Source of the DNA: Patescibacteria group bacterium UBA4787
GTDB taxonomy: Bacteria > Patescibacteriota > Patescibacteriia > UBA2591 > UBA4787
NCBI GenBank assembly: GCA_002402995.1
Contig: DHGX01000001.1
Coordinates: 85,625-149,624, forward strand
Direction of reading: 5' to 3'
DNA: 64,000 bases
In this document: positions 8,095 to 63,535 of the stretch, piece after piece
How the letters are laid out: each line of letters begins with the position of its first letter
How positions within the stretch are numbered: the stretch's first letter is position 1
Made by a program: the position numbers and the translations under genes
The notes under the pieces: model-generated
Told to the model about the DNA's origin: nothing
The model's input: only the letters and a program-made list of their open reading frames with translations
The model's database searches: none

Positions 8095-8102
8095 ATCAAT
8101 CC

Positions 8103-8136
8103 AGAGGGGAGCTCAAGCTTCCCTCTTTTATTTATT
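8103..8136 (+). terminator. Rho-independent terminator after arc
   Basis: agaggggagctcaagcttccctc hairpin followed by TTTTATTTATTT. Confidence 0.6.
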
Positions 8137-8216
8137 TAATTAATTTTTTATTGACCAATGCACCTCGGCTTATTTTATCAAAAATAACGACTGTTGATAA
8201 AAACTTCTAAATGGGG

Positions 8217-8246
8217 TTGACAAATTGGGTTTTTTACAACTATAAT
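8217..8246 (+). promoter_or_regulatory. Promoter (TTGACA, 18 nt spacer, TATAAT) upstream of the dop-like gene
   Basis: gTTGACAaattgggttttttacaacTATAAT; leader motif CGTTCTTTAAA at 8269-8279; strong SD AAAGGGGG before the ATG at 8298. Confidence 0.6.
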
Positions 8247-8297
8247 TAAGTATTAAAAAATTAAATATCGTTCTTTAAAAAGAAAGGGGGTAACTCA

Positions 8298-9869
8298 ATG
8301 AGAATCCCAAAAGTTTTTGGCATAGAAACCGAATGGTCTGTTCGTGTTCGAACGCGCAATAGCGTCAGGTTAGCTAACGCCAAAGAATTCGGCGTATTAA
8401 TAAAATTTATACGCGAATTTTTTACTTTGACCAACACCAGACAAGATTCCCAATGGGAGGCTTGTTCGGTTGATGCTGACCGCGAGTTAGAGCAAGAAAT
8501 AGATCTGCGGCATATCGAGAGTGTTGGTTATCTACCGAACGGCGCTCGTTTATATGTCGACTGGCCGCATTTGGAATATTCAACGCCCGAATGTCAGACG
8601 ATTCGTGATTTAATCGCCGCTGACCAAGCTGGCAATTGGCTGCTTAATATGGCCGCCAAAAAAGCCAGTCAACTCTTGAAAAGAGAGATTATAATTATCA
8701 AAGATAATTCCGATCGCAAAGGCGTTTCTTATGCCAGCCACGAGAATTATTCTTTGCAGCCCAGAACATTTAAGGCCATGATCGACCGACAGAACAGCGA
8801 AGCTCGCGATTTGATTTTGCCGTTTTTGGTAACGCGTCAAATTTTGGCCGGAGCCGGCAAAGTTGGTTCCGAAGCTAATAATTTGAGATCTGCAGATTAC
8901 GGCGAAACAAATTTTCAGATTTCGCAACGCGCAGATTTTATCAATGAAATTATCGGTATCGCCACTACGTCGCCGCGCAATCTGATCAACAGGCGCGATG
9001 AACCACATGCTGATTCTGATCTCTGCCGGCGATTGCATGTTATTATTGGTGATGCCAATTTCTGCGATTGGTCTTATTTTTTGCGCGTTGGAACCTACGC
9101 TCTGGTTTTGCGCATGCTGGAAGATTGCTTTATCGGCAATTCGCCAGTTTGTGTCGACAACCACTGGCTCGAAGCGCTTTATCAGACCTCGCGAGATTTG
9201 ACATGCAAGAAGAAGTTGCAGATTGGCACGGCTAGTCAATCACAGATGAATCCGATCGAGATTCAGCGTTGGTATCTTGGCTTAGTCAAGGAATATCTTG
9301 CCGAGTTTAAAGGCAGCGCCGAAGATCATGAGGTTTGTGAAAAATGGGAATATGTTTTAAACGCTCTGGACAACGACCCGAACCAATTGTTCGGCGTCTT
9401 GGACTGGGTAACAAAGAAATGTATTCTTGATCAATATCTTCAACACCAAGGCTTGCTTTGGCAGGATTCTCGGCTCCGTGTAATCGACATAGCTTACCAC
9501 AATATTAGCGATGAGGCTGGTCTTTATTATCAATTTTTAAAAAAAGGGAAAATCCAGAAATTGATTAATAACGAGTTGTTAATGGATAGGGTTCATAATC
9601 CTCCCGTTGACACACGCGCCTATTTGCGCGGAAAGATCGCTCGGCTTTATCCTGAGTTTGTGGAAGATTGGGAGATAATTTCCAATCGCATGCCAAGTAG
9701 ATTTCGTAAGGAACAGTTGGATTCGTTAAGGGTTATCCTAGAAGAAAAACACATTATTACTTTGGGTAACCCGGTTTTAACGCGAGAAGAGAGCGAAGAA
9801 ATTTTCAAACAAATTATTAATCTTTTGAAATCATGGAAAGGAGGAAGCGAAGATGTTAACACGACTTGA
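8298..9869 (+). CDS. dop: Pup ligase/deamidase family protein, Dop-like (candidate Pup deamidase/depupylase)
   Basis: FGIETEW start motif and NGARLYVD.P..EYSTPEC. SHENYS, LPFLVTRQILAGAGKV, INRRDEPHAD, RRLHVIIGDAN and NPPVDTRAYLRG are all PafA/Dop signatures. It has the longest insertion of the three paralogs between GIETE and NGARLY and a C-terminal extension, which is Dop-like. Confidence 0.75.
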   Translation: MRIPKVFGIETEWSVRVRTRNSVRLANAKEFGVLIKFIREFFTLTNTRQDSQWEACSVDADRELEQEIDLRHIESVGYLPNGARLYVDWPHLEYSTPECQTIRDLIAADQAGNWLLNMAAKKASQLLKREIIIIKDNSDRKGVSYASHENYSLQPRTFKAMIDRQNSEARDLILPFLVTRQILAGAGKVGSEANNLRSADYGETNFQISQRADFINEIIGIATTSPRNLINRRDEPHADSDLCRRLHVIIGDANFCDWSYFLRVGTYALVLRMLEDCFIGNSPVCVDNHWLEALYQTSRDLTCKKKLQIGTASQSQMNPIEIQRWYLGLVKEYLAEFKGSAEDHEVCEKWEYVLNALDNDPNQLFGVLDWVTKKCILDQYLQHQGLLWQDSRLRVIDIAYHNISDEAGLYYQFLKKGKIQKLINNELLMDRVHNPPVDTRAYLRGKIARLYPEFVEDWEIISNRMPSRFRKEQLDSLRVILEEKHIITLGNPVLTREESEEIFKQIINLLKSWKGGSEDVNTT

Positions 9870-10602
9870 GTTGACTTGGCGATTAATGGATGAGCTAATC
9901 GCTCAATTCCTGAAATTGCCGAGCGCGATAGGACAGAGCGACTTTAAACTGGAAGAGTATTTACAGCAATCCCATCTTCACGGTACCACCGTCCTCGCTC
10001 TGAAATATCAGGGTGGAGTGCTGTTAGGTGGAGACGGTCGGGCTTCCGGCATGGATTTCCGTATTTTTACGGACAAAACTCCGAAGGTTTATCCGGTTTC
10101 CGAGTCGACTGCTTACGGTCTTTCTGGGGACGCTCATCTGGGTATTGAGGTGGGAAAGATCTTGGCTTTGACGCTTAAGAATTACGAGAAGAAAGAGTTT
10201 CGAGCCATGAGTTTTGTCGCTCAAACCAAGATGTTGGCTAAAATGATCGAGCGTTTACTGCCAATGGCTATGCAGGGCCGTATCGTGATGCCGATTTTCG
10301 TGTCATGTCAGGAAATCTGCACGATTTATCCGAATGGCATGGTGGTAAGGGGAGATGAAGGTTATGGTGGAATTGGTTCGGGTAGTCCTCACGCCATTCA
10401 TCGCATCAAGGCTCGTTTGGCTGATAACCCCAATCCAGATAAAACCAGGGCGATAGAAATTATACTCGAAGCTTTTGCGGAAGCTCATAAGAGTGATGCC
10501 GCAACCGGCTCTAATTTGCTGATTTATAGTCTGGAAGAGTCGGGAATCGCTATCGTTCGCAACGATGTCGGAAACGGACCGTTTTCGATGAACCTGTTGT
10601 AA
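9853..10602 (+). CDS. prcB: 20S proteasome beta subunit (PrcB) with propeptide
   Basis: The propeptide is followed by the active-site HG/TTVLALKYQGGVLLGGDGR, which matches the mycobacterial TTIVALKYPGGVVMAGDRR. The GIGSGS and AATGS motifs are present. The start overlaps the dop end by 17 nt and is preceded by GGAAAGGAGG. Confidence 0.85.
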   Translation: MLTRLELTWRLMDELIAQFLKLPSAIGQSDFKLEEYLQQSHLHGTTVLALKYQGGVLLGGDGRASGMDFRIFTDKTPKVYPVSESTAYGLSGDAHLGIEVGKILALTLKNYEKKEFRAMSFVAQTKMLAKMIERLLPMAMQGRIVMPIFVSCQEICTIYPNGMVVRGDEGYGGIGSGSPHAIHRIKARLADNPNPDKTRAIEIILEAFAEAHKSDAATGSNLLIYSLEESGIAIVRNDVGNGPFSMNLL

Positions 10603-10617
10603 TCGTGAGGTGAAATA

Positions 10618-11322
10618 ATGGCTGATAAATTGGATCTCATTGCCAACGACAAAGATAATGCCTTGCCGGTTATCGCAGTCAGCACCAAAGACGGCATACT
10701 TCTTGTCGCAATTAATTTTTCCATTAGTCCGGAGGATTCCGATACCTACATCCACAAACTTTCAGAGATCCATGACAATATCGGCATGGGCGCTTGTGGC
10801 AATAGCAGCGAGTATGATCCGCTGCGCAGGCAGTTTATCGACGTCGTTGATAGGCTTGCCTACGAGTTGTCCAAGGACGATATTGTCTTGAAGAGTCTGG
10901 CCAATAGTTTGGCCGGAGAGTTGCGCGATGTATATCGCAATCCCCGTCTGGTTCCTCGTGTGGTCTTCTTCGTCTTGGTGGAATGTCAGGAAGATTCGAA
11001 GCGGGATCGTTTCGTCCGGATCGGTCTCGACGGCAAGTTCAAGATCTTTAATAATTTCACGGTGATCGGCGGCAACGACAAAGAGGTTGGCGCTCTAATG
11101 GATAACCTCAGGTCCGTCGAATTTTTGGAGATGGACTGGCCGACCGCTTTAACCGCGATCAAGGAAGCGATAAAGAAAACCAACATCGCCCGGATCGCTG
11201 GCGCAAAGAAATCGGACAAGACCGTCGAACCGTTCCCATCCCTGGAGCTGGCAATTCTCTGGCGTGGAAGAACTGGCAGAAAATGGCAGCTTTTGCCGCA
11301 TCAAATTAAGGAGGTGAAATAA
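10618..11322 (+). CDS. prcA: 20S proteasome alpha subunit (PrcA)
   Basis: VIAVSTKDGILLVA, KLSEIHDNIGMGACGNSSEYDPLRR and VIGGNDKE align with PrcA segments. It follows prcB. Confidence 0.75.
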   Translation: MADKLDLIANDKDNALPVIAVSTKDGILLVAINFSISPEDSDTYIHKLSEIHDNIGMGACGNSSEYDPLRRQFIDVVDRLAYELSKDDIVLKSLANSLAGELRDVYRNPRLVPRVVFFVLVECQEDSKRDRFVRIGLDGKFKIFNNFTVIGGNDKEVGALMDNLRSVEFLEMDWPTALTAIKEAIKKTNIARIAGAKKSDKTVEPFPSLELAILWRGRTGRKWQLLPHQIKEVK

Positions 11323-11323
11323 A

Positions 11324-11527
11324 ATGCTTAAAAAGCAGTTTCTATTCTTAACCCCAGACGAGCAAGAAAAAAAGGAGACTGAAAAACATCCTCTGGGGCC
11401 CAAGCCCGGCGGACCTGGCTCCGGTAAGAAGGCAGACAAAAATGATGATAACATCGATGACATCCTTGATGACATCATCGAACGGAATAAGCGGGTTAAT
11501 GAAACTGACGAGCGAGAGGGTCAGTAA
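11324..11527 (+). CDS. pup: Prokaryotic ubiquitin-like protein Pup (67 aa, C-terminal -EGQ)
   Basis: Small acidic, disordered protein whose C-terminal half DDNIDDILDDIIERNKRVNETDEREGQ resembles the Pup helix plus the terminal G-Q. Strong SD AAGGAGGTG. Located between prcA and a pafA-like gene. Confidence 0.6.
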   Translation: MLKKQFLFLTPDEQEKKETEKHPLGPKPGGPGSGKKADKNDDNIDDILDDIIERNKRVNETDEREGQ

Positions 11528-11535
11528 TATTTAAT

Positions 11536-11568
11536 CCCCGCACTTTAAAATAGTGCGGGGATTTTTTT
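11536..11568 (+). terminator. Rho-independent terminator after pup
   Basis: ccccgcactttaaaatagtgcgggg hairpin followed by ATTTTTTTAT. Confidence 0.7.
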
Positions 11569-11673
11569 ATAATCGCAATGAGCGAGGCAGCAGAAATTTT
11601 ATTTTTAGATTGCCGGACAGGTCAGATTATATATTGAAGAGAGGCATAGTTCTCCTCTTCTTCTATTTTAATT

Positions 11674-11708
11674 TGACAAATCATCAAAAAAAGATAAGAT
11701 TTATATAA
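11674..11708 (+). promoter_or_regulatory. Promoter (TTGACAAAT-type) upstream of pafA-like paralog 2
   Basis: tTTGACAaatcatcaaaaaaagaTAAGATttatataag; GTTCCTTAAAA leader variant at about 11725. Confidence 0.45.
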
Positions 11709-11755
11709 GAAAAATAATAATGTTGTTCCTTAAAATTATTCAAGGAGAGAATAAA

Positions 11756-13285
11756 ATGAAGAAGAGAATTATTGGGATAGAGAATGAATATCGGATTCAG
11801 GCTCTGCCCGGATTCGATAAAAGCAGATACAAGGTTTATTTTCGGGGATTGAAAATAAGCTTGAATCAGTTTCTATCCAACGGAGCGAGGTTTTATTTGG
11901 ATTTTCCGAGCGAACTGCCGGAGTATTGCACGCCGGAAGTTACGACCATCCGTGAAGTTCTGGCGCATGAACGCGCCGGAGATTATATTGTCTGGGAGAG
12001 CCTGAAAGACATGATGGAAATTTTTAGGCGGAATACCAGTCAGCCAGGTCTCTTTTACAAATATCTGGCAAGTGGTTGTCATGAGAACTATCTTTTTTAT
12101 CTTGATGAAGCTATCAAGTCAACTGCGAATATCTACCCGCAGATGAGCGGCCACATCTTGGCAAGATTGGTGGCTTTTTTGGGGCCCTTCTTGGTCTCTC
12201 GACAGATTTTTTGCGGCGCTGGTTGGTGGTTAACAAATGAAGATGGGCGAAGTTATTTTAATATTTCGCAGCGCGCCCATTTTATGAAGCGTGATTACGG
12301 CGGAGACACGATGCAGAATAGGGCGATTATCAATTCTCGGAATGAATCATTGTGTTCGTCGAGCAATTATTCTCGTCTTCATCTCATTGTTGGCGACTCC
12401 AATATGAGCGATCTCTCTGGTTTTCTCAAGCTCGGCACCACGTCTATCGTTTTAAGGATGATCGAAGCAGGCTTCTTTGATCCACAAGACATTGTTCTAG
12501 TTGATCCGGTTGCGGCTATCGCTGTCATTTCCGATGATTTGAGCTGTAAGGCGACTGTCCAGGCCGGCGGTTTGCATCGTTCGCTTTCAGCCATTGACAT
12601 CCAAGAGTGGTATCTTAATAAAGCTCGTGAATTTTTTGAATGTCGAGAAGTATCCGAAGAGGAGAAGGAGGTTATAAAATATTGGCAGGAAGTTTTGGAC
12701 AAACTGCGCCGAGACCCCATGCTTCTCAAAGAGGAGATCGACTGGGTGATCAAATATAATTTGATTTGCCGTTATGCTGAAAAACACGGTGTTGATCTCG
12801 ATCATTGTTCGGACGAGGAGAGTGAAGCGCTGAGAGTCATTGACACTCATTATCATTCTCTAAATCCGGAGAGAGGTTTGTACCACAAGCTTCTCGGCGC
12901 TGGGAAGATCGCCAAGCTTATTAGTGATAAAGAGGTGGCTTTGGCAATAAAATCTCCACCGACTGATACGCGAGCCAAAGTCCGTGGTGACTTCATTTCT
13001 TTCATCCTGAAAAATCATGCGGATTTGGTTAGGTATTTCATCGTCAATTGGGACGCTATTCGTTATAATTATCGTGCTAATGGATTTTCTAGGCTGATCC
13101 ACGAATTTCAACCTAATCAAGACGATGAATCGGTGAAAGCCTGTGTTTTCAATCTCGGCGATCCGTTTCTTTCAACAGAAACTTGCAACAACTTCCAAGT
13201 ATTGGTTGAAGAGATTGAGTCTCACCAAGAATTTTTCAAATCTATGATACCAACTCCGTCTCCTGACCATCGCGATTATGAATAG
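11756..13285 (+). CDS. pafA: Pup ligase family protein, PafA-like (paralog 2)
   Basis: IGIENEY, NGARFYLDFP.ELPEYCTPE, GCHENYL, RLHLIVGDSNMSD, LKLGTTSIVLRMIE, EIDWVIKYNL, PPTDTRAKVRG. Start chosen at MKKRII with SD AAGGAGAG. The GIENE-to-NGARFY spacing is short, which is PafA-like. Confidence 0.8.
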   Translation: MKKRIIGIENEYRIQALPGFDKSRYKVYFRGLKISLNQFLSNGARFYLDFPSELPEYCTPEVTTIREVLAHERAGDYIVWESLKDMMEIFRRNTSQPGLFYKYLASGCHENYLFYLDEAIKSTANIYPQMSGHILARLVAFLGPFLVSRQIFCGAGWWLTNEDGRSYFNISQRAHFMKRDYGGDTMQNRAIINSRNESLCSSSNYSRLHLIVGDSNMSDLSGFLKLGTTSIVLRMIEAGFFDPQDIVLVDPVAAIAVISDDLSCKATVQAGGLHRSLSAIDIQEWYLNKAREFFECREVSEEEKEVIKYWQEVLDKLRRDPMLLKEEIDWVIKYNLICRYAEKHGVDLDHCSDEESEALRVIDTHYHSLNPERGLYHKLLGAGKIAKLISDKEVALAIKSPPTDTRAKVRGDFISFILKNHADLVRYFIVNWDAIRYNYRANGFSRLIHEFQPNQDDESVKACVFNLGDPFLSTETCNNFQVLVEEIESHQEFFKSMIPTPSPDHRDYE

Positions 13286-13326
13286 TCCCGTTCTGGCTGA
13301 TTGAAATCCCCATTTTATTTTTATTA

Positions 13327-13356
13327 ACGCTCCTAAATAATTAGGAGCGTTTTAAA
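13327..13356 (+). terminator. Terminator after pafA-like paralog 2
   Basis: gctcctaaataattaggagcg hairpin followed by TTTTAAATTT. Confidence 0.55.
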
Positions 13357-13357
13357 T

Positions 13358-13386
13358 TTGACAAATTATCAAAAAACGCTAAGCTT
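13358..13386 (+). promoter_or_regulatory. Promoter (TTGACAAAT-type) upstream of pafA-like paralog 3
   Basis: tTTGACAaattatcaaaaaacgcTAAGCT; CGTTCTTTACAAAGAAGGG leader nearly identical to the dop leader. Confidence 0.45.
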
Positions 13387-13430
13387 TAAATAATAAAATT
13401 AAAATCGTTCTTTACAAAGAAGGGAATAAA

Positions 13431-14900
13431 ATGCAAAAACGCATTTATGGTTTGGAGACTGAGTATAGGTGGTGGAGTTCCTTGCCGGAGAAAAACCCCG
13501 ATAATCCGAGTCAGGTTTTTTCCGGATATCATTTGAATACTATAGTCAATTACTATCCGGGTAATTATTCTGGCTTTTTGCCAAACGGCGCTAGGTTTTA
13601 TGTGGACATGGTTCGGTTTCCAGAGTTCTCAACTCCGGAATGTGCGAGTGTTAGAGATGCCGTGATTTGGGATAAGGCAGGGGAAAAAATAGTTTTCGAT
13701 TGTTTGGGCGGCGCTGTTGTCATCCGAAAAAGAAATTTAGGCAGCAACGGAAAAGTACAGGGTTGCCACGAGAATTATTTGATCGATCGCCAGGTCTTAT
13801 TGAAAGATCGCGACATCTCTCTCGGTCATGTCCATTTGGTCGAACGAGACTTTAATTATTTGGCCGATCGTCTAATTCCTTTTTTGGTGACGCGCCAGGT
13901 TTTCTGCGGCACCGGCGCCATTATGGAGTTCCCACAAATTCAGATAGGGGAAAATCCTTCAACTCAGTGTTTATATCGCTATGTCATTTCACAGCGAGCT
14001 TTCAGAATCGAGCATTTAATCCACGCCGAGACTACTAATAATCGGCCGATCATTAACATGCGCAATGAGCCTCTGTGCGGTGGCGACGAGAGATATTTCC
14101 GCCTGCATCTGATTCTGGGTGATTCTAATCTTTCAGAGTTTTCGACTTTCTTGAAATTGGGTACTACTGGCATAATCTTGCGGATGATTGAGGCTGATTT
14201 TTTAGACACAACCAGTATTGCTCTGCTTGATCCATTAGCAGCTCTTCGGCAAGTCGCGATAGATCCGACTTGCAAAAAAAGGCTAGACTTGGTTGATCAA
14301 CGTCAGTTTTCAGCTATCGACATTCAACAGTGGTATCTCGACAAAGCCAATAAGTTCTTCCAGCGCAACGAAGCTTCAGAAGAGGAAAAAGAAGTGATTG
14401 AGCGTTGGCAAGAAACGTTGGACAAACTGCGCCGAGACCCCATGCTTCTCAAAGAGGAGATCGACTGGGTGATCAAGCTCAACGCTTTGATAAGATATTG
14501 CGAATCTCGCAATTTATCTTTTGACAGCGAAGAAGCAAGGCGTCTTGACGTGGCTTATCATGATCTTGATCCGGATAATTCTCTCTACTTAAAACTTCTT
14601 AAACGTGGTCGCGTCAAGAGGTTAGTTGCCGAGGAAGAGATCGAGAACGCCATTGTTAATCCGCCCGATACGCGCGCCAAAATTAGAGGTTCTGTTATAC
14701 TGGCAATCAACGATTATATTAATCGTTCGTCTATTGGCCGTGATCGCGGCATCTTAATAAACTGGGATTTGGTTTCTGTGTATGCTTCTACGATTCCTCC
14801 TACCACTACTTCTGATAAGATAATAACACTAAGCGATCCTTTCGCGGTGGAAAATTCGGAAATCCAGGCTCTAGTCAACCAATTAAATGCTACACTTTAA
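13431..14900 (+). CDS. pafA: Pup ligase family protein, PafA-like (paralog 3)
   Basis: YGLETEY, NGARFYVD...FPEFSTPEC, GCHENYL, LIPFLVTRQVFCGTGA, RLHLILGDSNLSE, LKLGTTGIILRMIE, EIDWVIKLNAL and PPDTRAKIRG. Confidence 0.8.
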   Translation: MQKRIYGLETEYRWWSSLPEKNPDNPSQVFSGYHLNTIVNYYPGNYSGFLPNGARFYVDMVRFPEFSTPECASVRDAVIWDKAGEKIVFDCLGGAVVIRKRNLGSNGKVQGCHENYLIDRQVLLKDRDISLGHVHLVERDFNYLADRLIPFLVTRQVFCGTGAIMEFPQIQIGENPSTQCLYRYVISQRAFRIEHLIHAETTNNRPIINMRNEPLCGGDERYFRLHLILGDSNLSEFSTFLKLGTTGIILRMIEADFLDTTSIALLDPLAALRQVAIDPTCKKRLDLVDQRQFSAIDIQQWYLDKANKFFQRNEASEEEKEVIERWQETLDKLRRDPMLLKEEIDWVIKLNALIRYCESRNLSFDSEEARRLDVAYHDLDPDNSLYLKLLKRGRVKRLVAEEEIENAIVNPPDTRAKIRGSVILAINDYINRSSIGRDRGILINWDLVSVYASTIPPTTTSDKIITLSDPFAVENSEIQALVNQLNATL

Positions 14901-29927: not shown

Positions 29928-30524
29928 ATGACTTTATTAAAAAATAAACCTATCTTTTCTTGGATAATTGTAGTTGCCTTGCTCGCTCTGGTTATAGGGA
30001 TATTCACGCCCTTGTTATTTAATGATGAATTTTTTGAAAAAGAGCCCGCGTCTCAAAATAAAAAAATTGCAATTTATTTTAATAATAATCAGCTCAATCC
30101 GAACCTTAGCGACTGTAGTAAGACTTATCCAGTTTTTAGAACCATAAACGATGAAATTAATCTGTCGGAAGCGGCACTGAAAGAATTGTTCAAGGGTCCG
30201 ACCGAACAAGAAAAAGAGCAGGGCTATATTTCCTGGTTCTCTCCTCAAACAAAATTTATCTTAAAAAATCTTAAAATAGAAAATAATACAGCCTATGTTG
30301 ATTTAATAGACATTCGGTCTATTATCCCTAATGCTTCTAGTAGCTGTGGTAGCGCGGAATTTTTATCTGAAATAGAAAATACGCTTAAACAATTCCCCGA
30401 AATAGAAAAAATTATCTTTGCTATTAATGAAAAGCCGTCCGATTTTTACGAATGGATACAGATCGGCTGTGATAAGCAGTTGAATAATTGCGACGAAGGG
30501 CCCTTCGCTAATTTTAAAAAATAA
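29928..30524 (+). CDS. Membrane-anchored GerMN-like domain protein
   Basis: N-terminal TM; LKELFKGPTEQEKEQGYISWFSPQTKF...NNTAYVDL resembles the GerM N-terminal/GerMN fold. Weak. Confidence 0.4.
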   Translation: MTLLKNKPIFSWIIVVALLALVIGIFTPLLFNDEFFEKEPASQNKKIAIYFNNNQLNPNLSDCSKTYPVFRTINDEINLSEAALKELFKGPTEQEKEQGYISWFSPQTKFILKNLKIENNTAYVDLIDIRSIIPNASSSCGSAEFLSEIENTLKQFPEIEKIIFAINEKPSDFYEWIQIGCDKQLNNCDEGPFANFKK

Positions 30525-30717
30525 TTTATTTTTTACAATTATGAATGTTTATTTCAAAAACATTGGTGTAATGTTGCCGAAAATACTTTTGTCAAACAAA
30601 AAAGTCGACTTAAGGAAGTGGTCGGTAGTGGCCTGCGACCAATATGCTTCAGGGCCGGCCTATTGGCAAAAAGTTTCTATTTAGAGCGTCGGAAGATTAA
30701 ATAAGCCGTTCTAGCAA

Positions 30718-31281
30718 ATGAGCGTTTATACTCCAAAAATTCAAGAAGCATTGGAATTTGCCGCCAAAGTCCATCAGAATCAAAAAAGAAAGATCGGCGG
30801 TTTGCCATATTTAATACATTCTGTGGGTGTAGCCTTGATTTTGACAGGAATAAACACAGAAGAAGATTTGATCGCCGCCGCCTTACTCCATGACACCATA
30901 GAAGACGGCGAAGGAATTAACAAAGAAGTTTTAGCTAAAAAATTTGGTGATAGAGTAGCCGAAATTGTTTATGGGGTTAGTGAAAAAAGTAAATCATTGT
31001 CATGGCAAGAAAGAAAAGTTGAGGCACTTGATCATGTTGTCAGGGCGGGTTATGACGAGATTTTGGTTAAATCGGCCGACGTGGTTTATAATATGAATGA
31101 TGTCGCCACCAGTTATCAGAATGAGGGCGAGGCGATATTTGAGCACTTTAAGGCTGGCAAAGAACAGCAACTAGAGCGTTATCAAAAATTAGTTAAAACT
31201 ATAAAAAACAAATGGCCGCAGAACCCATTAATGCAGGAGTTAGAGGAAAAGCTGAGCAAGCTGGAGAATCTTTGGCAATAA
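30718..31281 (+). CDS. HD-domain phosphohydrolase, RelA/SpoT-type (p)ppGpp hydrolase-like
   Basis: HD motif (LIHSVGVA...AALLHDTIEDG) typical of the SpoT/RelA N-terminal hydrolase domain; 187 aa with no synthetase domain. Confidence 0.65.
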   Translation: MSVYTPKIQEALEFAAKVHQNQKRKIGGLPYLIHSVGVALILTGINTEEDLIAAALLHDTIEDGEGINKEVLAKKFGDRVAEIVYGVSEKSKSLSWQERKVEALDHVVRAGYDEILVKSADVVYNMNDVATSYQNEGEAIFEHFKAGKEQQLERYQKLVKTIKNKWPQNPLMQELEEKLSKLENLWQ

Positions 31282-31339
31282 ATTTTAATAATTAATAGAA
31301 CATAATTAATTTCTGGCGCAACGATTTATTTGATATTTG

Positions 31340-31588
31340 CCCCGTAATACAACTTCGATGAGACCGACTCTGGTCGGCCCAAAAATCATGGAAAATTTTG
31401 TTAGTTAGATTGATAAACCCCGTTAGAGATTTAAAATTAAATATATTTAGGAGATTGACAAGAGCCGTGAGGCGGCTTCGCCTTAGTTGGGCGACAAAAG
31501 ATAGTCTCGGCTGAATCTCTAACGGGGTAAACATAAATATTTATTAGGACATAAAAATTATTAAAAATATCGAAGATGATATACGGGG
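31340..31588 (+). mobile_element. Miniature inverted-repeat element, family B copy 1 (about 249 bp, includes a nested hairpin module)
   Basis: Imperfect TIRs CCCCGTAATACAACTTCGAT ... ATCGAAGATGATATACGGGG. A second copy lies at 35835-35975. The internal arms AACCCCGTTAGAGATT / AATCTCTAACGGGGT (31416-31431 and 31514-31527) enclose a TTGACA box. Confidence 0.55.
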
Positions 31589-31652
31589 TTTGCCAAAATC
31601 ATTTTATTTCTATAGAATAATTGAGTATTTTAAAATTAAAAGTCTTTTTAAT

Positions 31653-33050
31653 ATGCTTAAGAGAACTATTGTTTCGGACGCAGTGAATAAAGTAGGGCAA
31701 GAAGTCCGGCTTTGCGGTTGGGTTAATACGCGCCGTAATATGGGCAAAATTGTTTTTATTGATTTCCGCGATCGCAGCGGATTGGTTCAGGTTATTTTGG
31801 CGCCTAAAGAATTAGACGATGATTCACGGGAAGTCATTAAAATCATTCGCCCAGAATTCGTGTTAGAAATTATTGGTATGGTTAATGCGCGACCAGTTGG
31901 TCAAATAAAAGAAGAACAATTAACCGGCGCCGTGGAGATTATGGTCAGGTCGGTGAAAATATTGAATGAATCGGAGACTCCGCCCTTTGAAATTGATAAT
32001 GAAACTTTGCAGGCCAACGAGGAGCTTCGTTTGAAATATCGTTATTTGGATCTTCGTCATGAAAGGATGAAAAATAATATTATTATTCGAGACAAGATTT
32101 TTAAATATTTCCGCGATTATCTTTCTCAAAAAGATTTTTTGGAAATTGAAACCCCGATTTTATGTAAGGGCACACCGGAGGGGGCGCGTGAATATTTGGT
32201 GCCTTCGCGCGTTTATCCCGGCAAATTTTATGTTTTGGCGCAGTCGCCCCAGCAATTTAAGCAGCTGCTTATGGTTAGCGGCATGGAAAGATATTTTCAA
32301 ATCGCCAGGTGTTTCCGTGATGAAGACAGCCGCGGTGATCGCCAGCCTGAATTTACCCAATTAGACTTAGAAATTAGCTTTGTTGAGCGCGAAGACGTAA
32401 TGAATTTGATCGAAGACATGCAGATAGAAACCATTAAAGATTTATTTCCGTATAAGCATATAACCCAAACGCCATTTCCGCGATTTACTTGGAAAGAGGT
32501 GATGGAAAAATACGGCACGGATAAACCCGACATTCGCAAAGACAAAAACGATAAAGATGAACTGGGTTTCTGTTGGGTAGTTGATTTTCATTTCTTCGAG
32601 AAAACAGATGGCGGTAAATGGATTTTCACGCATAATCCTTTTTCCGCGCCAAAGACGGAATTTATGGAAAACCTGATGAAAAAAGAAAATATCGAAGAGA
32701 TCATAACCACCCAATACGATTTAGTTTTGAATGGCGTTGAGGTCGCTGGGGGTAGTATCCGTAATCATCAACCCGAGGCTTTAAGAAGGGTTTTCGAAAT
32801 TATGGATTTGAGCGAGGAACAGATTGAAAGTAACTTCGGTCATATGTTTGAAGCACTTAAATATGGAGCTCCGCCACATGGCGGCATTGCCATAGGGCTT
32901 GATCGTTTGGTTATGATTTTACAAAACGAACCCAGTATTCGCGAAGTTATAGCTTTCCCCAAAACCAGCGATGGCCGCGATCCGATGATGGGCGCGCCCT
33001 CAGAGATACCATCGGAAAAAATTAAAGAAGCCAACATTAATATTTTATAA
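31653..33050 (+). CDS. aspS: Aspartyl-tRNA synthetase (compact type without GAD insertion)
   Basis: N-terminal OB fold (VRLCGWVNTRRNMGKIVFIDFRDRSG), class II motif 2 FRDEDSRGDRQPEFTQLDLE, and motif 3 GGIAIGLDRLVM. Start set at MLKRTIV. Confidence 0.85.
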   Translation: MLKRTIVSDAVNKVGQEVRLCGWVNTRRNMGKIVFIDFRDRSGLVQVILAPKELDDDSREVIKIIRPEFVLEIIGMVNARPVGQIKEEQLTGAVEIMVRSVKILNESETPPFEIDNETLQANEELRLKYRYLDLRHERMKNNIIIRDKIFKYFRDYLSQKDFLEIETPILCKGTPEGAREYLVPSRVYPGKFYVLAQSPQQFKQLLMVSGMERYFQIARCFRDEDSRGDRQPEFTQLDLEISFVEREDVMNLIEDMQIETIKDLFPYKHITQTPFPRFTWKEVMEKYGTDKPDIRKDKNDKDELGFCWVVDFHFFEKTDGGKWIFTHNPFSAPKTEFMENLMKKENIEEIITTQYDLVLNGVEVAGGSIRNHQPEALRRVFEIMDLSEEQIESNFGHMFEALKYGAPPHGGIAIGLDRLVMILQNEPSIREVIAFPKTSDGRDPMMGAPSEIPSEKIKEANINIL

Positions 33051-33061
33051 TATTAGACTCA

Positions 33062-33961
33062 ATGGCCCGCATTTTTAAATTAGCTTGGCAAAATTTTGTC
33101 CGCAATATTTGGTTGTCGTGCACATTAATTATCATTTTGATATTAATGTTTTTTTCGTTTAGTATCGTCAGCGGCATAAATTTGATAATACGCGAAACAG
33201 TCAATAGCTTACGCAATCGAGTTGATTTGAGCCTTTATTTTAAGCCGAATGCAGGGGAAGAGAAAATAAATGTTTTAAAAAATCAGCTTCAAAAGATGCC
33301 GGAAATTCAAGAGATTAATTATGTATCACCAGAAGAAGCTTTAGTTAAATTTAAAGATCTTCACGTACAGGACAACCTAATCAATAAGTCACTGGAAGAA
33401 TTAGATAAGAATCCTTTTGGCGGCACGATTTTAATTAAAGTGAAATCAATTGAAGATTACGAAGCGGTTCGGGAATTATTAAAGGGCGATGCCTACCAAC
33501 AAATTATTCAAGAAATGAATTTTTATAATTATGAACAAGTAGTTACGCAAATCGATCAATGGGGGACAAAAATTAAATTTACCGGATTTTTGGTCAGCAG
33601 TATCTTTGTTCTAATCGTTGCCTTGGTCGTTTTTAACGCCATTCGATTGAGTATTTATGCTCGCCAGGAAGAAATTAAAATTATGCGACTAGTCGGGGCG
33701 TCAGCTGGATTTATTCGTTGGCCGTTTATTTTGGAAATAACATTTAGTATTTTATTGAGCTGGATTATCGCGGGCGGATGTTTTATTTCTTCTCTGTATT
33801 TTATTCAACCCAAGATTTTTGAATTTTTAAACTTTAATTTCCCGATTTCCACATATGTTTTGAATAATCTCCCGATATTTTTTGGGCCGCAATTAATTTT
33901 TGCTTTTCTGATTTGTATCTTGAGCTCCTCTTTGGCTATGCGCAAATATTTGGAGATTTAA
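33062..33961 (+). CDS. ftsX: FtsX-like permease
   Basis: N-terminal TM, a periplasmic domain and a C-terminal three-TM bundle with LRLVGAS..FIRWPF typical of FtsX. Confidence 0.7.
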   Translation: MARIFKLAWQNFVRNIWLSCTLIIILILMFFSFSIVSGINLIIRETVNSLRNRVDLSLYFKPNAGEEKINVLKNQLQKMPEIQEINYVSPEEALVKFKDLHVQDNLINKSLEELDKNPFGGTILIKVKSIEDYEAVRELLKGDAYQQIIQEMNFYNYEQVVTQIDQWGTKIKFTGFLVSSIFVLIVALVVFNAIRLSIYARQEEIKIMRLVGASAGFIRWPFILEITFSILLSWIIAGGCFISSLYFIQPKIFEFLNFNFPISTYVLNNLPIFFGPQLIFAFLICILSSSLAMRKYLEI

Positions 33962-33966
33962 TTTTT

Positions 33967-35355
33967 ATGTTAGCTTATTTTAAAACCAAGAGATTTAAAA
34001 TTTATTTGGGTTTAGCCCTGTCTATATTTATTGTTCTGCCGGTTTTGGCAGGGTTTTTTTATTTAGCTACTCCCATAGATAATTTGCGTGATTTAACACC
34101 CAAAGATCAGACGATCTTTTATGCTCATTTTAACGTCAATACGCGTCATCTGATTGGCAATCGCGCCTATCATTTTCTTAAAGATCATTGGCCAGAGAAG
34201 GAATTGACGCAATTATACGCGAGATACCCAATTTATGAGCTTTTTAAGTACAATTTTAATGTCGCAATTTTGGACGCTCTCGATGACTTTTCGTTGGTTC
34301 TTTTAAAAGACGAGAAAGACGGAACCATAAATCCGATTGTGATGTATCATTTTAAATCATCTTTTTCGTCGCCAACAATTGTAACTGGCGAAAAAAGAGA
34401 CAATCAAGTTTATAGTCGGCTACTTGATAATCGAATCGCAGTCATTGGCTTAAAAGAGAATTTATTGAATGAATTCTTGTCGCCGGCCCATTCGCCATTT
34501 TCTAAGATTATTTCGCCGCTTCAATATGTCAGCAATGATTTTTTGAACGGCTACGCGACTAATAATATTCTGCCGAGCAATAATTATTTTTCTTTTTTGG
34601 GGAAAGAAAGCGTACAAAAGATTGGCCAGATAAAATTTAGGGCCCGCAATCTTAAAAATTTAATTTTTTTTGAGGCTAGGGTTTTTGATGTAGGGAATGA
34701 AGAGGTTCGTCTTTTTGAAGATCATTTTTCAAATTTTGTTAACTTTTTATCGCCCCGGCCCGGGCTGGCTAGTTTTTTTAATATTGAAATCGATTCGAGT
34801 ATTAGAATTTTTCTCGGACTCAATAATGCTTCTTTAATTGATGGAGACAACGGGGCGCAAATTTATTTACGTGGTCCGCAATTTTCGCCAAATTTATTTT
34901 GGGAAGATTTTAAAAATAATTTAGCTCGAGCTTTTCCAGAAGAAAAAACGATACTTCTGCCCGATAAAACCAAGACGATCGAATATATTATGAACCTTGA
35001 TCGTTTTTCCGCCGAGAAAGAGCAAGTTGAAGATTTTACTTTAAATAAAATTATTATTAATCGTCCTGACTTATCATCGAAAAATCGAGAGCGCGCATGG
35101 GCTTTTAATGACCATTTCGTAATTTTAGGCAACAATATTAATTTTGTAAAAAATATTATCAACAATTATTATCTTAATTCCCAAGACAAGCGTTTCGTAA
35201 AAGATTTATTAATTCTAAAAACGAGATGTGTTCCTTTAGATAGCAAAAAAATAATTTTTTATAATTTTCCAGCACAAGGATGGTTTAAAAAATTAATTGC
35301 AGGCATGGTTCTTTCCGATAATTCTCTTCTCTGGGGCGGTTGTTTTTCGTACTAG
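33967..35355 (+). CDS. Hypothetical membrane-anchored protein
   Basis: Start at MLAYFKT directly after the ftsX stop; one N-terminal TM; no recognised domain. Confidence 0.4.
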   Translation: MLAYFKTKRFKIYLGLALSIFIVLPVLAGFFYLATPIDNLRDLTPKDQTIFYAHFNVNTRHLIGNRAYHFLKDHWPEKELTQLYARYPIYELFKYNFNVAILDALDDFSLVLLKDEKDGTINPIVMYHFKSSFSSPTIVTGEKRDNQVYSRLLDNRIAVIGLKENLLNEFLSPAHSPFSKIISPLQYVSNDFLNGYATNNILPSNNYFSFLGKESVQKIGQIKFRARNLKNLIFFEARVFDVGNEEVRLFEDHFSNFVNFLSPRPGLASFFNIEIDSSIRIFLGLNNASLIDGDNGAQIYLRGPQFSPNLFWEDFKNNLARAFPEEKTILLPDKTKTIEYIMNLDRFSAEKEQVEDFTLNKIIINRPDLSSKNRERAWAFNDHFVILGNNINFVKNIINNYYLNSQDKRFVKDLLILKTRCVPLDSKKIIFYNFPAQGWFKKLIAGMVLSDNSLLWGGCFSY

Positions 35356-35460
35356 CTTATTTGTGGGGATAAGTTGTGGATAAGGCTCTTGCCAGAAACG
35401 GCGATAAGCATAATATATTGTAATTATCTTAATAAATGACTAATCTTTATTTTTTATCTT

Positions 35461-35826
35461 ATGAACAAAAAAGACATGGAATTATTTAAAAATCGTCTGG
35501 AGGAGATGAAAAAGAGCGTAGAGGGCCAGCTAAGCGAAGTGGCTGAAAAAAGCTCGCATGGCGAGAACGTTTACGAAGCTAAATTCCCCGAATTTGGAGA
35601 CACGGAAGATGAAAATATTGACGAGGTAACCACTTTCGTTGATCGTCTCTCCATCGAAGAAAATTTAGAAAATCAATTACAAGAAATTAATTTGGCATTG
35701 GAAAAAATAAAAAAGAATAAATATGGTTTTTGCGAGTCTTGTGATAAAGAAATTCAAGAAAAAAGGCTAGAGGCCATACCAACCGCTCGTTGGTGTTTAG
35801 AATGTAAGGCAAAGATAAGCAAATAA
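35461..35826 (+). CDS. DksA/TraR-family C4 zinc-finger protein
   Basis: Coiled-coil N-terminus and C-terminal CESCDKEI...ARWCLEC four-Cys finger. Confidence 0.7.
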   Translation: MNKKDMELFKNRLEEMKKSVEGQLSEVAEKSSHGENVYEAKFPEFGDTEDENIDEVTTFVDRLSIEENLENQLQEINLALEKIKKNKYGFCESCDKEIQEKRLEAIPTARWCLECKAKISK

Positions 35827-35834
35827 TCATTATG

Positions 35835-35975
35835 CCCCGTAATACAACTTCGATGGGGCCGACGATAGTCGGCCCAGAACCCCCCCAGGAGAATTTTATT
35901 AGTTAGATTTATAAATATAAATAATATTTACCAAGATCCAAAAAATTATTAAAAATATCGAAGATGATATACGGG
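35835..35975 (+). mobile_element. Miniature inverted-repeat element, family B copy 2 (about 141 bp)
   Basis: Same termini as 31340-31588 (CCCCGTAATACAACTTCGATGGGGCCGAC...ATCGAAGATGATATACGGGG), lacking the nested module. Confidence 0.55.
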
Positions 35976-35977
35976 GT

Positions 35978-36427
35978 ATGTCAATTATTTATTTTAGGAT
36001 TAAAAGATGGTCTGCCATCTTATTAGTTCTTATTTTTTTTATTTTTGACCGCGCGCTAAAAGAAATTTATTTTTATTTCAACCATCATAAAAATTTATTT
36101 TATTTTTTTGATAGCGGATTATTTTTAAATAGAAATTTTGTTTTTGGAATGATCGAACCATCCTGTTTGATGATGATCGTCCTTGCTGTATTTTTTATTT
36201 TTTTAATTTGGCAGGCGATTAATTTTTGGCAGAAAAATTCTTGGGTTAACTTTTTTGCTTTTAGTTTAATTATCGCCGGAGCCTTCTCAAATATTTTGGA
36301 CAGATTTTTTTACGAAGCCGTGGTAGATTATTGGCAGATGCGGAATTTAAATATTTTTAATTTTTCCGATATAATGATTATCGGCGGTTTAATTATTTTT
36401 ATAATTAATTTTTTAAAGAAAAAATAA
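35978..36427 (+). CDS. lspA: Lipoprotein signal peptidase II
   Basis: LspA motifs (IIAGAFSNILDRFFYEAVVDY and FNFSDIMIIGG). The start is uncertain because the annotated ATG lies at the edge of the family-B element. Confidence 0.65.
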   Translation: MSIIYFRIKRWSAILLVLIFFIFDRALKEIYFYFNHHKNLFYFFDSGLFLNRNFVFGMIEPSCLMMIVLAVFFIFLIWQAINFWQKNSWVNFFAFSLIIAGAFSNILDRFFYEAVVDYWQMRNLNIFNFSDIMIIGGLIIFIINFLKKK

Positions 36428-38081: not shown

Positions 38082-38113
38082 TTCTATATTCTATATTCTA
38101 AATTCTAACTACT

Positions 38114-41047: not shown

Positions 41048-41186
41048 CCAGGTAGTGAAAATTCGATAGTGCTTTTCGCTTCAGCTTACTATCTGGTTCT
41101 ATCATCAATAAAATATTGATTTTTACTACTAGTGCATTTATATTAATAACTGCACTTTTAAGAAACATCGAATTTCTACTACCTGG
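41048..41186 (+). mobile_element. 139-bp miniature inverted-repeat element, family C copy 1
   Basis: The TIRs ATGCCAGGTAGTGAAAATTCGATAG ... CATCGAATTTCTACTACCTGGTAT nearly match the second copy at 46587-46725 (same 139 bp length). The element ends 1 nt before the ATG at 41188. Confidence 0.65.
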
Positions 41187-46586: not shown

Positions 46587-46725
46587 CCAGGTAGTGAAAA
46601 TTCGATAGTGCTTTTTGCTTCGGCTCATTACTTGGTTTCGTTGTTAACAAAATAACTAATCTTTGCTTCCAGCGCACTCCTTAATATAATCGCACTTCAA
46701 GAAGCATCGAATTTCTACTACCTGG
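46587..46725 (+). mobile_element. 139-bp miniature inverted-repeat element, family C copy 2
   Basis: Same TIRs as 41048-41186; ends 1 nt before the trmD ATG. Confidence 0.65.
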
Positions 46726-47541: not shown

Positions 47542-47670
47542 AGTATTGTTAATTTATATAGCCAAGTTCTTTAAAAATTTATTTTTTAGTTCAAACCACT
47601 ACAAAAATTCTTAAATTTTTTGTAGTTGCAAATTTTGAGTTTTGTAAATTTTTAGTATCAAATTTTTGTT

Positions 47671-49193
<1,523 letters not shown>

Positions 49194-50595: not shown

Positions 50596-50670
50596 ATATT
50601 CGTCATGCTTCGTGAAATTGGTTCGCTACGGAATCAGACAAAAAGATTTTTGTCTGTCCCCCTGTTTGCC
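50596..50670 (-). repeat. Intergenic repeat family 2 copy
   Basis: The reverse complement ATAATTGGCAAACAGGGGGACAGACAAAAATCTTTTTGTCTGATTCCGTAGCGAACCAATTTCACGAAGCATGACGA matches copies at 55683 and 63536. Confidence 0.6.
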
Positions 50671-55559: not shown

Positions 55560-55890
55560 TTTTTGGCAAGTTGATACCGAGAAGATTTTTAAAATTTAAT
55601 ATTTCGGCGCTATCCACACTTTATCCCCATTTTATCCTCGAAACTCCAAAAAATTTCGTTTCAATTATAAACGATCGATGTTATAATTGGCGAACGGAGG
55701 AACAGACAATTTTTTGTCTAATTCTGTAGCGAGCCAATTTCACAGAGCGAAGCAAGTATAATTGGCAGCAGGGATAAAACAAAAATTTTCCGCCAGCTGG
55801 CGGATTGATTTTATCCGAAGCGCTCAAATTTCAGAAGCGAGGCGACTATATTTTTTTTGTTGATCAAGCTAATAAAAATAAAATAAATTT
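55560..55890. promoter_or_regulatory. Candidate chromosomal origin (oriC) region upstream of dnaA
   Basis: Consecutive DnaA-box-like 9-mers cTATCCACA (55611), TTATCCCCA (55621) and TTATCCTCG (55632), and TTATCCGAA (55810). The flank is AT-rich and dnaA is immediately downstream. The region also contains repeat family 2 copies (55683-55760, and a degenerate one at 55757-55850). Confidence 0.5.
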
Positions 55891-63523: not shown

Positions 63524-63535
63524 ATTTATAGATTT

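What the first reader, a model, noticed from the sequence alone, without database searches (positions are those of the whole stretch)
31340..35975. Family B miniature element (two copies) with a nested hairpin module carrying a TTGACA box
Copies at 31340-31588 and 35835-35975 share CCCCGTAATACAACTTCGATG(A/G)G(A/G)CCGAC...GTCGGCCCA...TTTTGTTAGTTAGATT...ATTATTAAAAATATCGAAGATGATATACGGGG. The longer copy contains an extra module of about 110 bp bounded by AACCCCGTTAGAGATT / AATCTCTAACGGGGT. That module includes TTGACA and a GC hairpin (GAGCCGTGAGGCGGCTTCGCC). Both copies lie directly upstream of plus-strand genes (aspS, lspA). They may be composite MITEs that deliver outward promoters.
Basis: seen in the sequence. 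Interest (0 to 1): 0.5.

Follow-up and report, generated by a model that had tools for sequence, protein, structure and literature searches.

The report
Nested MITEs in a CPR genome
The two repeats are real copies of a small non-coding jumping-DNA element (a MITE), and one has a second MITE inserted inside it. The kind is ordinary, but the family appears undescribed, is spread across Candidate Phyla Radiation bacteria, and sits exactly at promoter -35 boxes and start codons.

Summary
Copy A (31340-31588, 249 bp) and copy B (35835-35976, 142 bp) are two insertions of one miniature inverted-repeat transposable element (MITE). It has 20-bp imperfect terminal inverted repeats (CCCCGTAATACAACTTCGAT ... 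ATCGAAGATGATATACGGGG) and 4-bp target-site duplications (TTTG and TATG).

A closely related, fully syntenic genome (L052/L053) has clean empty sites at both positions. The extra ~110-bp module in copy A is a separate MITE (family C, CCCCGTTAGAGATT ends, TAAA duplication). It is absent from the orthologous copy in L009.

Database scans found 28 distinct family-B elements (68-249 bp), only in Patescibacteria/CPR assemblies. The ends are almost invariant and the interiors are unrelated. No transposase-carrying partner was found.

The promoter-delivery idea is not supported:
- The aspS promoter-like site (TTGCCA-17-TAGAAT) already exists in the empty site.
- The nested TTGACA has no -10 box and is not conserved.

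The elements instead sit at existing signals. TTGA/TTTG duplications lie at the 5' edge of -35 hexamers, and TATG duplications are the downstream gene's start codon.

Verdict: a new member of a known kind (MITE), of moderate interest.

The parts
31336..31339 (+). Left copy of the TTTG target-site duplication of copy A
   Evidence: The empty site in L052/L053 reads ...ctggcaTTTGccaaaatc with a single TTTG.
31340..31359 (+). Left terminal inverted repeat of family-B copy A (CCCCGTAATACAACTTCGAT)
   Evidence: This sequence is identical in nearly all of the 28 distinct family members.
31361..31380 (+). GC-rich hairpin next to the left end of copy A (AGACCGAC-TCTG-GTCGGCCC)
   Evidence: Fold. A hairpin in this position occurs in about 15 of 28 family members, with unrelated sequences.
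31414..31417 (+). Left copy of the TAAA duplication made by the nested element
   Evidence: The orthologous copy in L009 has the uninterrupted sequence.
31418..31527 (+). Nested family-C MITE (110 bp). Ends are CCCCGTTAGAGATTTA / TGAATCTCTAACGGGG. It contains the non-conserved TTGACA and the GAGCCGTGAGGCGGCTTCGCC hairpin.
   Evidence: Homologous copies with their own 4-bp duplications occur in L003, L022, L025 and L032.
31528..31531 (+). Right copy of the TAAA duplication of the nested element
31569..31588 (+). Right terminal inverted repeat of copy A (ATCGAAGATGATATACGGGG)
31589..31592 (+). Right copy of the TTTG duplication of copy A. It overlaps the -35 hexamer TTGCCA (31590-31595) of the pre-existing aspS promoter-like site TTGCCA-17-TAGAAT (31590-31618).
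35831..35834 (+). Left copy of the TATG duplication of copy B. The dksA-like gene's stop codon TAA ends at 35826.
   Evidence: The empty site in L052/L053 reads ...aaaataatcatTATGtcaatt.
35835..35854 (+). Left terminal inverted repeat of copy B
35856..35875 (+). GC-rich hairpin next to the left end of copy B (GGGCCGAC-GATA-GTCGGCCC)
   Evidence: Fold.
35957..35976 (+). Right terminal inverted repeat of copy B
35977..35980 (+). Right copy of the TATG duplication of copy B. ATG 35978-35980 is the lspA start codon.

Best explanation
Copies A and B are two independent insertions of a non-autonomous DNA transposon (MITE), here called family B. It is about 140 bp long and non-coding, with 20-bp imperfect terminal inverted repeats.

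Inferred mechanism: a DDE-type transposase supplied in trans binds the two ends and inserts the element at a 4-bp staggered cut, rarely 5 bp. Read in the element's frame, the target is roughly T-N-N-R. Repair of the stagger gives the flanking duplication.

Copy A was later hit by a second MITE of a related type (family C, CCCCGTTAGA ends, also a 4-bp duplication). This produced the 249-bp composite.

The copies that survive sit at the 5' edge of a -35 hexamer (TTGA or TTTG duplicated) or exactly on a start codon (TATG duplicated). The duplication regenerates an intact signal next to the gene. In the transcript the element folds into a long hairpin whose closing stem pulls the two flanks together. 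This probably explains why such insertions are tolerated in a genome with almost no spare intergenic DNA.

Shown: the repeats, the duplications, the empty sites, the nesting, the distribution and the target pattern.
Inferred: the enzyme class, the asymmetric target recognition, and near-neutrality through the hairpin.
For: Anatomy

Insertion proved
- L052/L053 carry a 92% identical LspA, the same gene order, and 87.5% DNA identity over aspS-ftsX. They hold a single TTTG and a single TATG with no element at either site.
- L054/L055 also lack copy B.

Nesting proved
- L009, about 83% identical and syntenic, has copy A at the same site without the C module.
- L003 has the reverse arrangement, with B inside C.

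Family
- There are 28 distinct elements of 68-249 bp, all from Patescibacteria assemblies (Doudnabacteria, Yanofskybacteria, Saccharibacteria, H41-bin211_1).
- End positions are 93-100% conserved, apart from one T/A-polymorphic position in the right end, while interiors have a median identity of 56%.
- They occur in both orientations and in different gene contexts; 27 of 28 are intergenic.

Duplications (by my count)
- 22 of 28 have a perfect 4-bp repeat.
- 2 have 5 bp (L003, L021), 1 has a 5-bp match (L009), and 3 are imperfect.

Strong hairpin
- Folding z-scores are -6.0 and -6.5.
- Two two-sided compensatory changes occur in the terminal stem.

Targets
- 13 of 14 TTGA/TCAA/TTTG sites score at least 9 of 12 as -35/-10 promoters. 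Among intergenic TTGA sites in general, 21% do.
- All 9 TATG sites (6 family B, 3 family D) are start codons next to the element's right end. Among TATG sites outside coding sequence, 23% are start codons.

Not a described RNA family
- Rfam gave no hit.
Against: - No autonomous partner was found. Every pair of ends in one genome scan, one metagenome scan and three viral scans is at most 164 bp apart, apart from the window's 249-bp composite. No transposase domain turned up in 29 window ORFs.
- Copies at orthologous sites in very diverged genomes keep 40/40 end bases. L002/L015/L044 have flanking proteins only 62-65% identical. L020/L027 have interiors at random-level identity. A decaying selfish relic should not look like this, unless the same hot spot was hit repeatedly.
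- Copy A is present in the window and in the outgroup L009 but absent from the closer relative L052. This needs either precise excision or parallel insertion.
- The start-codon and -35 pattern is stronger than tetramer preference alone predicts.
Confidence: 0.85

Rival explanations
1. Exapted element. The family began as a MITE, but the ends and hairpin are now kept by host-level selection as a functional module placed at gene starts. Possible roles are an RNase III or other double-strand RNA processing site, an insulator between an upstream gene and the next promoter, or a hairpin that bridges the upstream leader to the start codon.
For: - Ends are 40/40 conserved at orthologous sites whose flanking proteins are only 62-65% identical. 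Interiors at the L020/L027 site are at random-level identity.
- A 3-nt central mismatch in the terminal stem is invariant across CPR lineages.
- Compensatory changes occur in the stem.
- A structurally conserved but sequence-variable hairpin sits beside the left end.
- Placement at -35 edges and start codons is precise.
Against: - Close relatives lack both window copies and show no other change at the sites, so these copies are dispensable.
- At -35 sites the elements occur in both orientations, 7 against 4, which argues against one strand-specific RNA role.
- No terminator-like feature lies inside them.
- Repeated hits on a hot spot would also explain intact ends at shared sites.
Confidence: 0.12
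2. One reading: composite MITEs that carry outward-facing promoters driving aspS and lspA.
For: - Both copies lie directly upstream of plus-strand genes.
- The nested module contains TTGACA.
- Outward promoters are known in some insertion sequences (PMC9330008).
Against: - The aspS promoter-like site is outside the element and pre-exists in the empty site.
- The nested TTGACA has no -10 box at 16-18 nt and is not conserved among family-C copies.
- No promoter-like hit faces outward from the right end of either copy.
- By my reading of the right end, TGATATACGGGG lacks the conserved final T of a -10 hexamer.
- Promoter-like hits are no more frequent than in shuffles.
Confidence: 0.05
3. REP-like or IS200/IS605-type palindromic elements moved as single strands by a tyrosine (HUH) transposase.
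For: - The whole element folds as a hairpin.
- There is a hairpin near one end.
- No DDE partner was found.
Against: - Elements of that class insert without duplicating the target and have no terminal inverted repeats (my own knowledge of the family).
- Here the flanking tetramer varies from copy to copy, is the same on both sides, and is single in empty sites.
Confidence: 0.02

Closest known systems
Correia elements (Neisseria miniature insertion sequences)
   Same: - Non-coding MITEs of about 100-155 bp with terminal inverted repeats of about 20-26 bp.
- Many copies next to genes.
- Fold into long hairpins in transcripts.
- Vary in length by internal insertions or deletions.
   Different: - Correia elements duplicate TA and carry promoter elements and an IHF site in their ends (my own knowledge).
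- Here the duplication is 4 bp (T-N-N-R) and no promoter is carried.
- The end sequences are unrelated.
- The host is CPR, not Neisseria.
MITEs derived from IS1380-family insertion sequences (distant prokaryotic relatives of piggyBac)
   Same: - Ends begin with CC.
- The target duplication is 4 bp, occasionally 5 bp, and A/T-rich and TTAA-like (TCAA, TTGA, TAAA, TTTA, TGAA, TTCA).
- The IS1380-piggyBac relationship is stated in PMC10140906.
- The family-table features (CC ends, 4-5 bp repeats) are recalled from ISfinder, not tested here.
- Clean empty sites in a sister lineage would fit seamless excision.
   Different: - No IS1380-type transposase with these ends was found in any scan.
- There is no similarity to plasmid or phage records.
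- The assignment is a lead, not a result.
Rickettsia palindromic elements (RPE)
   Same: - Small palindromic mobile repeats in a reduced genome.
- One family-B copy (L038: 68 bp plus a 4-bp duplication, 72 bp in total) is inserted in frame inside an alanine racemase gene and read through as 24 codons.
   Different: - 27 of 28 family-B copies are intergenic.
- RPEs are typically inside genes and show no clear duplications (my own knowledge).
Insertion sequences with defined landing sites, such as IS1202-group elements at XerCD sites
   Same: Insertion next to a specific functional DNA signal rather than at random. The IS1202 example comes from the abstract of bioRxiv 10.1101/2022.12.17.520857, listed.
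   Different: Here the signals are -35 hexamers and start codons. It is not known whether the pattern reflects the enzyme's preference or survival of harmless insertions.

Membership tests
Bacterial MITE | Small (under about 300-500 bp) and without coding capacity | tested here: met
   Elements are 68-164 bp and the composite is 249 bp. The only ORF overlapping copy A (31292-31534, minus strand, 80 aa) spans both elements. It cannot exist in L009, which lacks the nested part.
Bacterial MITE | Terminal inverted repeats | tested here: met
   The ends are 20 bp. 17 of 20 positions are complementary in the commonest form and 16 of 20 in the window copies, with a conserved 3-nt central mismatch.
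Bacterial MITE | Target-site duplication of fixed length that differs between copies | tested here: met
   By my count, 22 of 28 have a perfect 4-bp repeat. Two have 5 bp (L003, L021), one has a 5-bp match (L009) and three are imperfect.
Bacterial MITE | Filled and empty alleles at orthologous sites | tested here: met
   L052/L053 are empty at both window sites. L054/L055 are empty at site B. L009 is empty for the nested element.
Bacterial MITE | Multiple dispersed copies | tested here: met
   There are 2 copies in the 64-kb window, at least 4 in the MAG H41-bin211_1, 3 in L050, and 28 distinct copies overall.
Bacterial MITE | A cognate autonomous element with the same ends | tested here: inconclusive
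   None was found in the scans of genome contigs, metagenome contigs or viral contigs, nor among 29 window ORFs. The scans needed an exact match to 16 fixed bases, so a partner with slightly different ends would have been missed.
IS1380-derived element | Ends beginning with CC and a 4-5 bp duplication | tested here: met
   The ends are CCCCG..., and CCAGG... in sibling family D. The duplications are 4 or 5 bp. The family criteria themselves are recalled from ISfinder.
IS1380-derived element | Mobilised by an IS1380-type DDE transposase whose element carries matching ends | not testable with these tools
Correia element | TA duplication and Correia-type 26-bp ends | tested here: not met
   The duplications are 4 bp and usually lack TA (for example TCAA, TTTG). 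The ends are unrelated.
REP / IS200-IS605-type palindromic element | No target duplication, subterminal hairpins rather than terminal inverted repeats | tested here: not met
   Duplications were verified against empty sites.
Curated RNA family (Rfam 15) | A match to a covariance model | tested here: not met
   Nothing reached a gathering score. The only weak hit was MtlS, at 20 bits against a gathering score of 80 and E = 2.5, on the nested element.
Intrinsic terminator | A GC hairpin followed by a T run | tested here: not met
   No terminator-like site lies inside either copy. The hairpins are followed by A-rich sequence.

The most novel reading that the evidence does not exclude
The 20-bp ends, with their invariant 3-nt central mismatch, would not be mere transposase sites of a selfish element. 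They would be maintained by selection in the host across CPR phyla. On this reading the elements are an 'orphan' mobile module with no conventional transposase partner. They would be installed at -35 hexamer edges and start codons, and removed seamlessly, by an enzyme or mechanism not yet described, and would act there on transcription or translation.
Probability: 0.12. Interest if true: 0.75.

Novelty: new member of a known kind. Interest (0 to 1): 0.45.

Why it matters
CPR/Patescibacteria genomes are tiny and are usually described as poor in mobile DNA. I found no paper describing MITEs in them.

This window shows that such a genome can carry several MITE families:
- Families B, C and D and a further family A are all present.
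- They nest inside one another.
- They differ between relatives that share 87% DNA identity.

Practical consequences:
- These repeats break assemblies. L051 and L032 both end inside an element.
- They can change gene ends (L022) or insert in frame into genes (L038).

The landing pattern at -35 edges and start codons also provides a ready-made map of promoters and true start codons in organisms that cannot be grown alone.

Tried and rejected
- Rfam, at gathering and permissive thresholds: nothing.
- Viral contig scans with the ends of families B, D and C: no hits.
- Plasmid and phage BLAST with copy B: only weak A/T-rich matches that do not cover the ends.
- Search for an autonomous copy: I looked for CCCCG...CGGGG pairs with a duplication up to 4 kb apart in all loci. 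Only MITE-sized pairs appeared. The one 1234-bp pair in L022 is two separate family-C elements flanking mltG.
- Pfam on 29 window ORFs: no transposase.
- An outward promoter in the right end (TGATATAC as an extended -10): rejected, because the hexamer lacks the conserved last T and sibling family D has nothing comparable.
- The hairpin beside the left end as a terminator: rejected, because there is no T run on either strand.
- Hits L001, L005, L008, L034, L036 and L037: single 20-mers in non-CPR or unrelated contexts with no partner end, treated as chance.
- Whether the B::C composite moved as a unit (L032 has C at the same TAAA in a B copy at another site): undecided. The C parts differ at about 6 of 110 positions by my count from the alignment, while the B interiors are only 83% identical. 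This fits two independent hits on the same spot slightly better.
- Literature searches for the end sequences and for MITEs in CPR: nothing relevant.
Full report
**Observation.** The two regions are as described.
- Copy A spans 31340-31588 (249 bp).
- Both start with CCCCGTAATACAACTTCGAT and end with ATCGAAGATGATATACGGGG. The 21-mer at the left end occurs only at these two places, with none expected in shuffles.
- After removing the internal module of copy A, the two copies are 82% identical over their whole length. The interiors alone align far above shuffled controls, at score 74 against -61 +/- 12.
- The similarity is therefore real and is not an effect of A/T-rich sequence.

**What the ends are.**
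- The right end is an imperfect reverse complement of the left. Read inward it is CCCCGTATATCA(T/A)CTTCGAT.
- The element thus has 20-bp terminal inverted repeats with a 3-nt central mismatch (ATA against TAT).
- Each copy is flanked by a 4-bp direct repeat: TTTG for copy A and TATG for copy B.
- The internal module of copy A (31418-31527) has its own inverted ends, CCCCGTTAGAGATTTA / TGAATCTCTAACGGGG, and its own flanking repeat, TAAA.

**Proof of insertion.** I searched for homologues of the window's LspA and fetched their contigs.
- L052 (ENA) and L053 (JGI Ga0265296_1003339) have a 92% identical LspA and the same gene order: SpoIID, 238-aa protein, Germane, AspS, FtsX, 466-aa protein, DksA-like, LspA, ChlI, HD. 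They are 87.5% identical in DNA over aspS-ftsX.
- At both sites they have no element and a single copy of the tetramer...ctggcaTTTGccaaaatc... and ...aaaataatcatTATGtcaatt....
- L054/L055, more distant relatives, also lack copy B.
- L009/L024 is about 83% identical and syntenic. It carries copy A at the same site without the nested module, which gives an empty site for that element too.
- A separate read set (L051) shows the same left junction of copy B and breaks off inside the repeat.

**The family.**
- One scan of 185,579 species genomes and one of JGI metagenome contigs, using the degenerate end sequence, returned 50 loci.
- After removing duplicates and six chance single hits, 28 distinct elements remain. 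All come from Patescibacteria assemblies: Doudnabacteria, Yanofskybacteria, Saccharibacteria and the Hainich MAG H41-bin211_1.
- Sizes are 68-164 bp, and 249 bp for the window's composite.
- End positions match the consensus in 26-28 of 28 elements, apart from one T/A-polymorphic position in the right end. Interiors have a median identity of 56%, close to what this aligner gives for unrelated sequence (53-56%).
- The central ATA/TAT asymmetry is invariant or nearly so.
- About half of the elements have a GC-rich hairpin directly after the left end, built from unrelated sequences. The two shortest elements (L013, L038) are just the ends plus this hairpin.
- Whole elements fold far better than shuffles, with z-scores of -6.0 and -6.5.
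- Two copies in L050 carry two-sided compensatory changes in the terminal stem.
- Rfam has no matching family.

**Relatives of the family.**
- Family C (CCCCGTTAGA... ends, 94-133 bp, 4-bp duplications) is widespread in the same organisms.
- B and C nest in each other in both directions. C is inside B in the window and in L032. B is inside C in L003, together with a third palindromic element.
- Aligning the window with L052 exposed a sibling family D, with ends CCAGGTAGTGAAAATTCGAT that match the family-B end at 14 of 20 positions. It is 139 bp long and duplicates TATG. It also has a central asymmetry at the same place.
- Family D has copies at 41048-41186 and 46587-46725. A further copy in L052 and L054 corresponds to an empty site in the window.

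**Where they land.** 27 of 28 family-B copies are intergenic. In the element's own frame the duplicated tetramers are T-N-N-R: TCAA 7 times, TTGA 4, TATG 6 (two imperfect), TTTG 3, and a few others. T-N-N-G occurs 10 times and its reverse complement C-N-N-A never. Two patterns stand out.
- *Promoter -35 edges.*
  - The TTGA/TCAA/TTTG sites are the first bases of a -35 hexamer that is followed at 16-18 nt by a good -10 hexamer. Examples are TTGACA-17-TATATT, TTGACC-18-TAAAAT and TTGCCA-16-TATAAT.
  - 13 of 14 sites score at least 9 of 12.
  - Only 21% of intergenic TTGA tetramers in the same loci do so. For the 11 TTGA/TCAA sites this gives P of about 1e-6, though not all sites are independent.
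- *Start codons.*
  - All nine TATG sites (six B, three D) are the start codon of the gene beyond the element's right end.
  - Start codons make up 23% of TATG sites outside coding sequence.

In the window, copy A sits on TTTG|CCA of the aspS promoter-like site. Copy B splits the 5-nt gap between the dksA-like stop codon and the lspA ATG. Because the duplication regenerates the tetramer, an intact -35 box or start codon remains next to the gene.

**Reading of the mechanism.**
- The terminal repeats, the fixed-length duplications that differ between copies, the clean empty sites and the nesting are the signature of cut-and-paste or copy-in transposition by a DDE transposase acting in trans. The enzyme class is inferred, not shown.
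- The bias for T at the first duplicated position, together with ends that are consistently different left and right, suggests asymmetric target recognition (inference).
- Whether the -35 and start-codon pattern comes from the enzyme's preference or from survival of harmless insertions in very short spacers cannot be decided here. At site B, TATG is the only T-N-N-R tetramer in the spacer (my reading of the sequence). At L012 and L017 the spacers are about 95-156 nt, yet the start codon was still hit.
- The hairpin may make insertions tolerable by bringing the flanks together in the mRNA (inference by analogy with split ribosome-binding sites).

**Promoter delivery.** This idea is not supported.
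- The aspS promoter-like site is outside the element and pre-exists in the empty site.
- The nested TTGACA has no -10 partner and is not conserved.
- Promoter-like hits in the region are at the chance level.

**Loose ends.**
- No autonomous partner was found in any scan or among 29 window ORFs.
- Copies at the same site in diverged genomes keep perfect ends. L002/L015/L044 have flanking proteins 62-65% identical. At the L020/L027 site the interiors are at random-level identity.
- Copy A is present in the window and in the outgroup L009 but not in the closer L052. Similarly, a family-D copy is in L052 and L054 but not in the window.
- Each of these cases needs either repeated hits on the same hot spot, or seamless excision, or selection on the ends.
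- CC-initial ends, 4-5 bp TTAA-like duplications and possible seamless excision recall the IS1380/piggyBac group. The IS1380-piggyBac relationship is stated in PMC10140906. This remains a lead from memory, not a tested assignment.

**Verdict.**
- The finding is real and is explained as two insertions of a MITE, one carrying a nested MITE.
- The kind is known. The family, and MITEs in CPR bacteria generally, appear undescribed in the searchable literature.
- The landing pattern and the very strong conservation of the ends across CPR lineages make it moderately interesting.

Noticed in passing
window 41048-41186 and 46587-46725; L052 8129-8265; L054 3392-3529: A sibling MITE family (D), 139 bp long. 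Its ends are CCAGGTAGTGAAAATTCGAT / ATCGAATTTCTACTACCTGG, matching the family-B end at 14 of 20 positions. It duplicates TATG at start codons. The window's site 38084-38104 is empty where L052 and L054 are filled.
   Followed up: partly
It is present in the window but absent from the aligned positions in L052, so it is also insertion-polymorphic.
   Followed up: partly
window 30524-31281: An HD-domain gene (30718-31281, 187 aa) with its upstream spacer is present in the window. It is absent between the Germane-domain gene and aspS in both L052 and L009.
   Followed up: no
L038 2916-2983: A 68-bp family-B element plus its 4-bp duplication (72 bp) lies in frame inside an alanine racemase gene. 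It is read through as 24 extra codons (...PRNTTSIAAEGGNHEMVEVDTRG...).
   Followed up: partly
L022 2493-2605 and 3616-3726: Two family-C elements flank mltG. One contains the gene's ATG. The other supplies its stop codon...KYL-PR* from TTA|CCCCGTTAG, where the pre-insertion sequence would read KYLR*.
   Followed up: partly
L003 956-1326: Triple nesting. A family-C element contains a family-B element and also a further palindromic insert of about 115 bp (CCTGCCCGACTTTGCCTTGAC...GTCAAGGCGGGCGGG).
   Followed up: no
L032 4998-5246: The same B::C composite, with C at the same TAAA, sits at a different genomic site (left flank ...atcatctcTATG), and the contig ends inside it. Either the composite moved as a unit or the same spot was hit twice. 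The C parts differ at about 6 of 110 positions by my count, and the B interiors are 83% identical.
   Followed up: partly
window 6370-14900: An AAA ATPase is followed by three Pup-ligase-family paralogues (8298-9869, 11720-13285, 13431-14900). Repeat D1 (12575-12753 / 14298-14476) lies within two of these paralogues.
   Followed up: no
window 55674-55715 and 63528-63569; 50611-50649 and 63562-63600: A 42-nt direct repeat (88% identical...TTATAATTGGCGARCGGAGGAA...) lies upstream of dnaA and next to the leuS start. A 39-nt inverted repeat (92% complementary) is nearby. These may be shared leader or promoter sequences, or another small element.
   Followed up: no
window 47666-49193: Rfam found the 16S rRNA gene but no 23S rRNA anywhere in the window. 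The next features are an ORF and three minus-strand tRNAs, so the rRNA genes appear unlinked.
   Followed up: no
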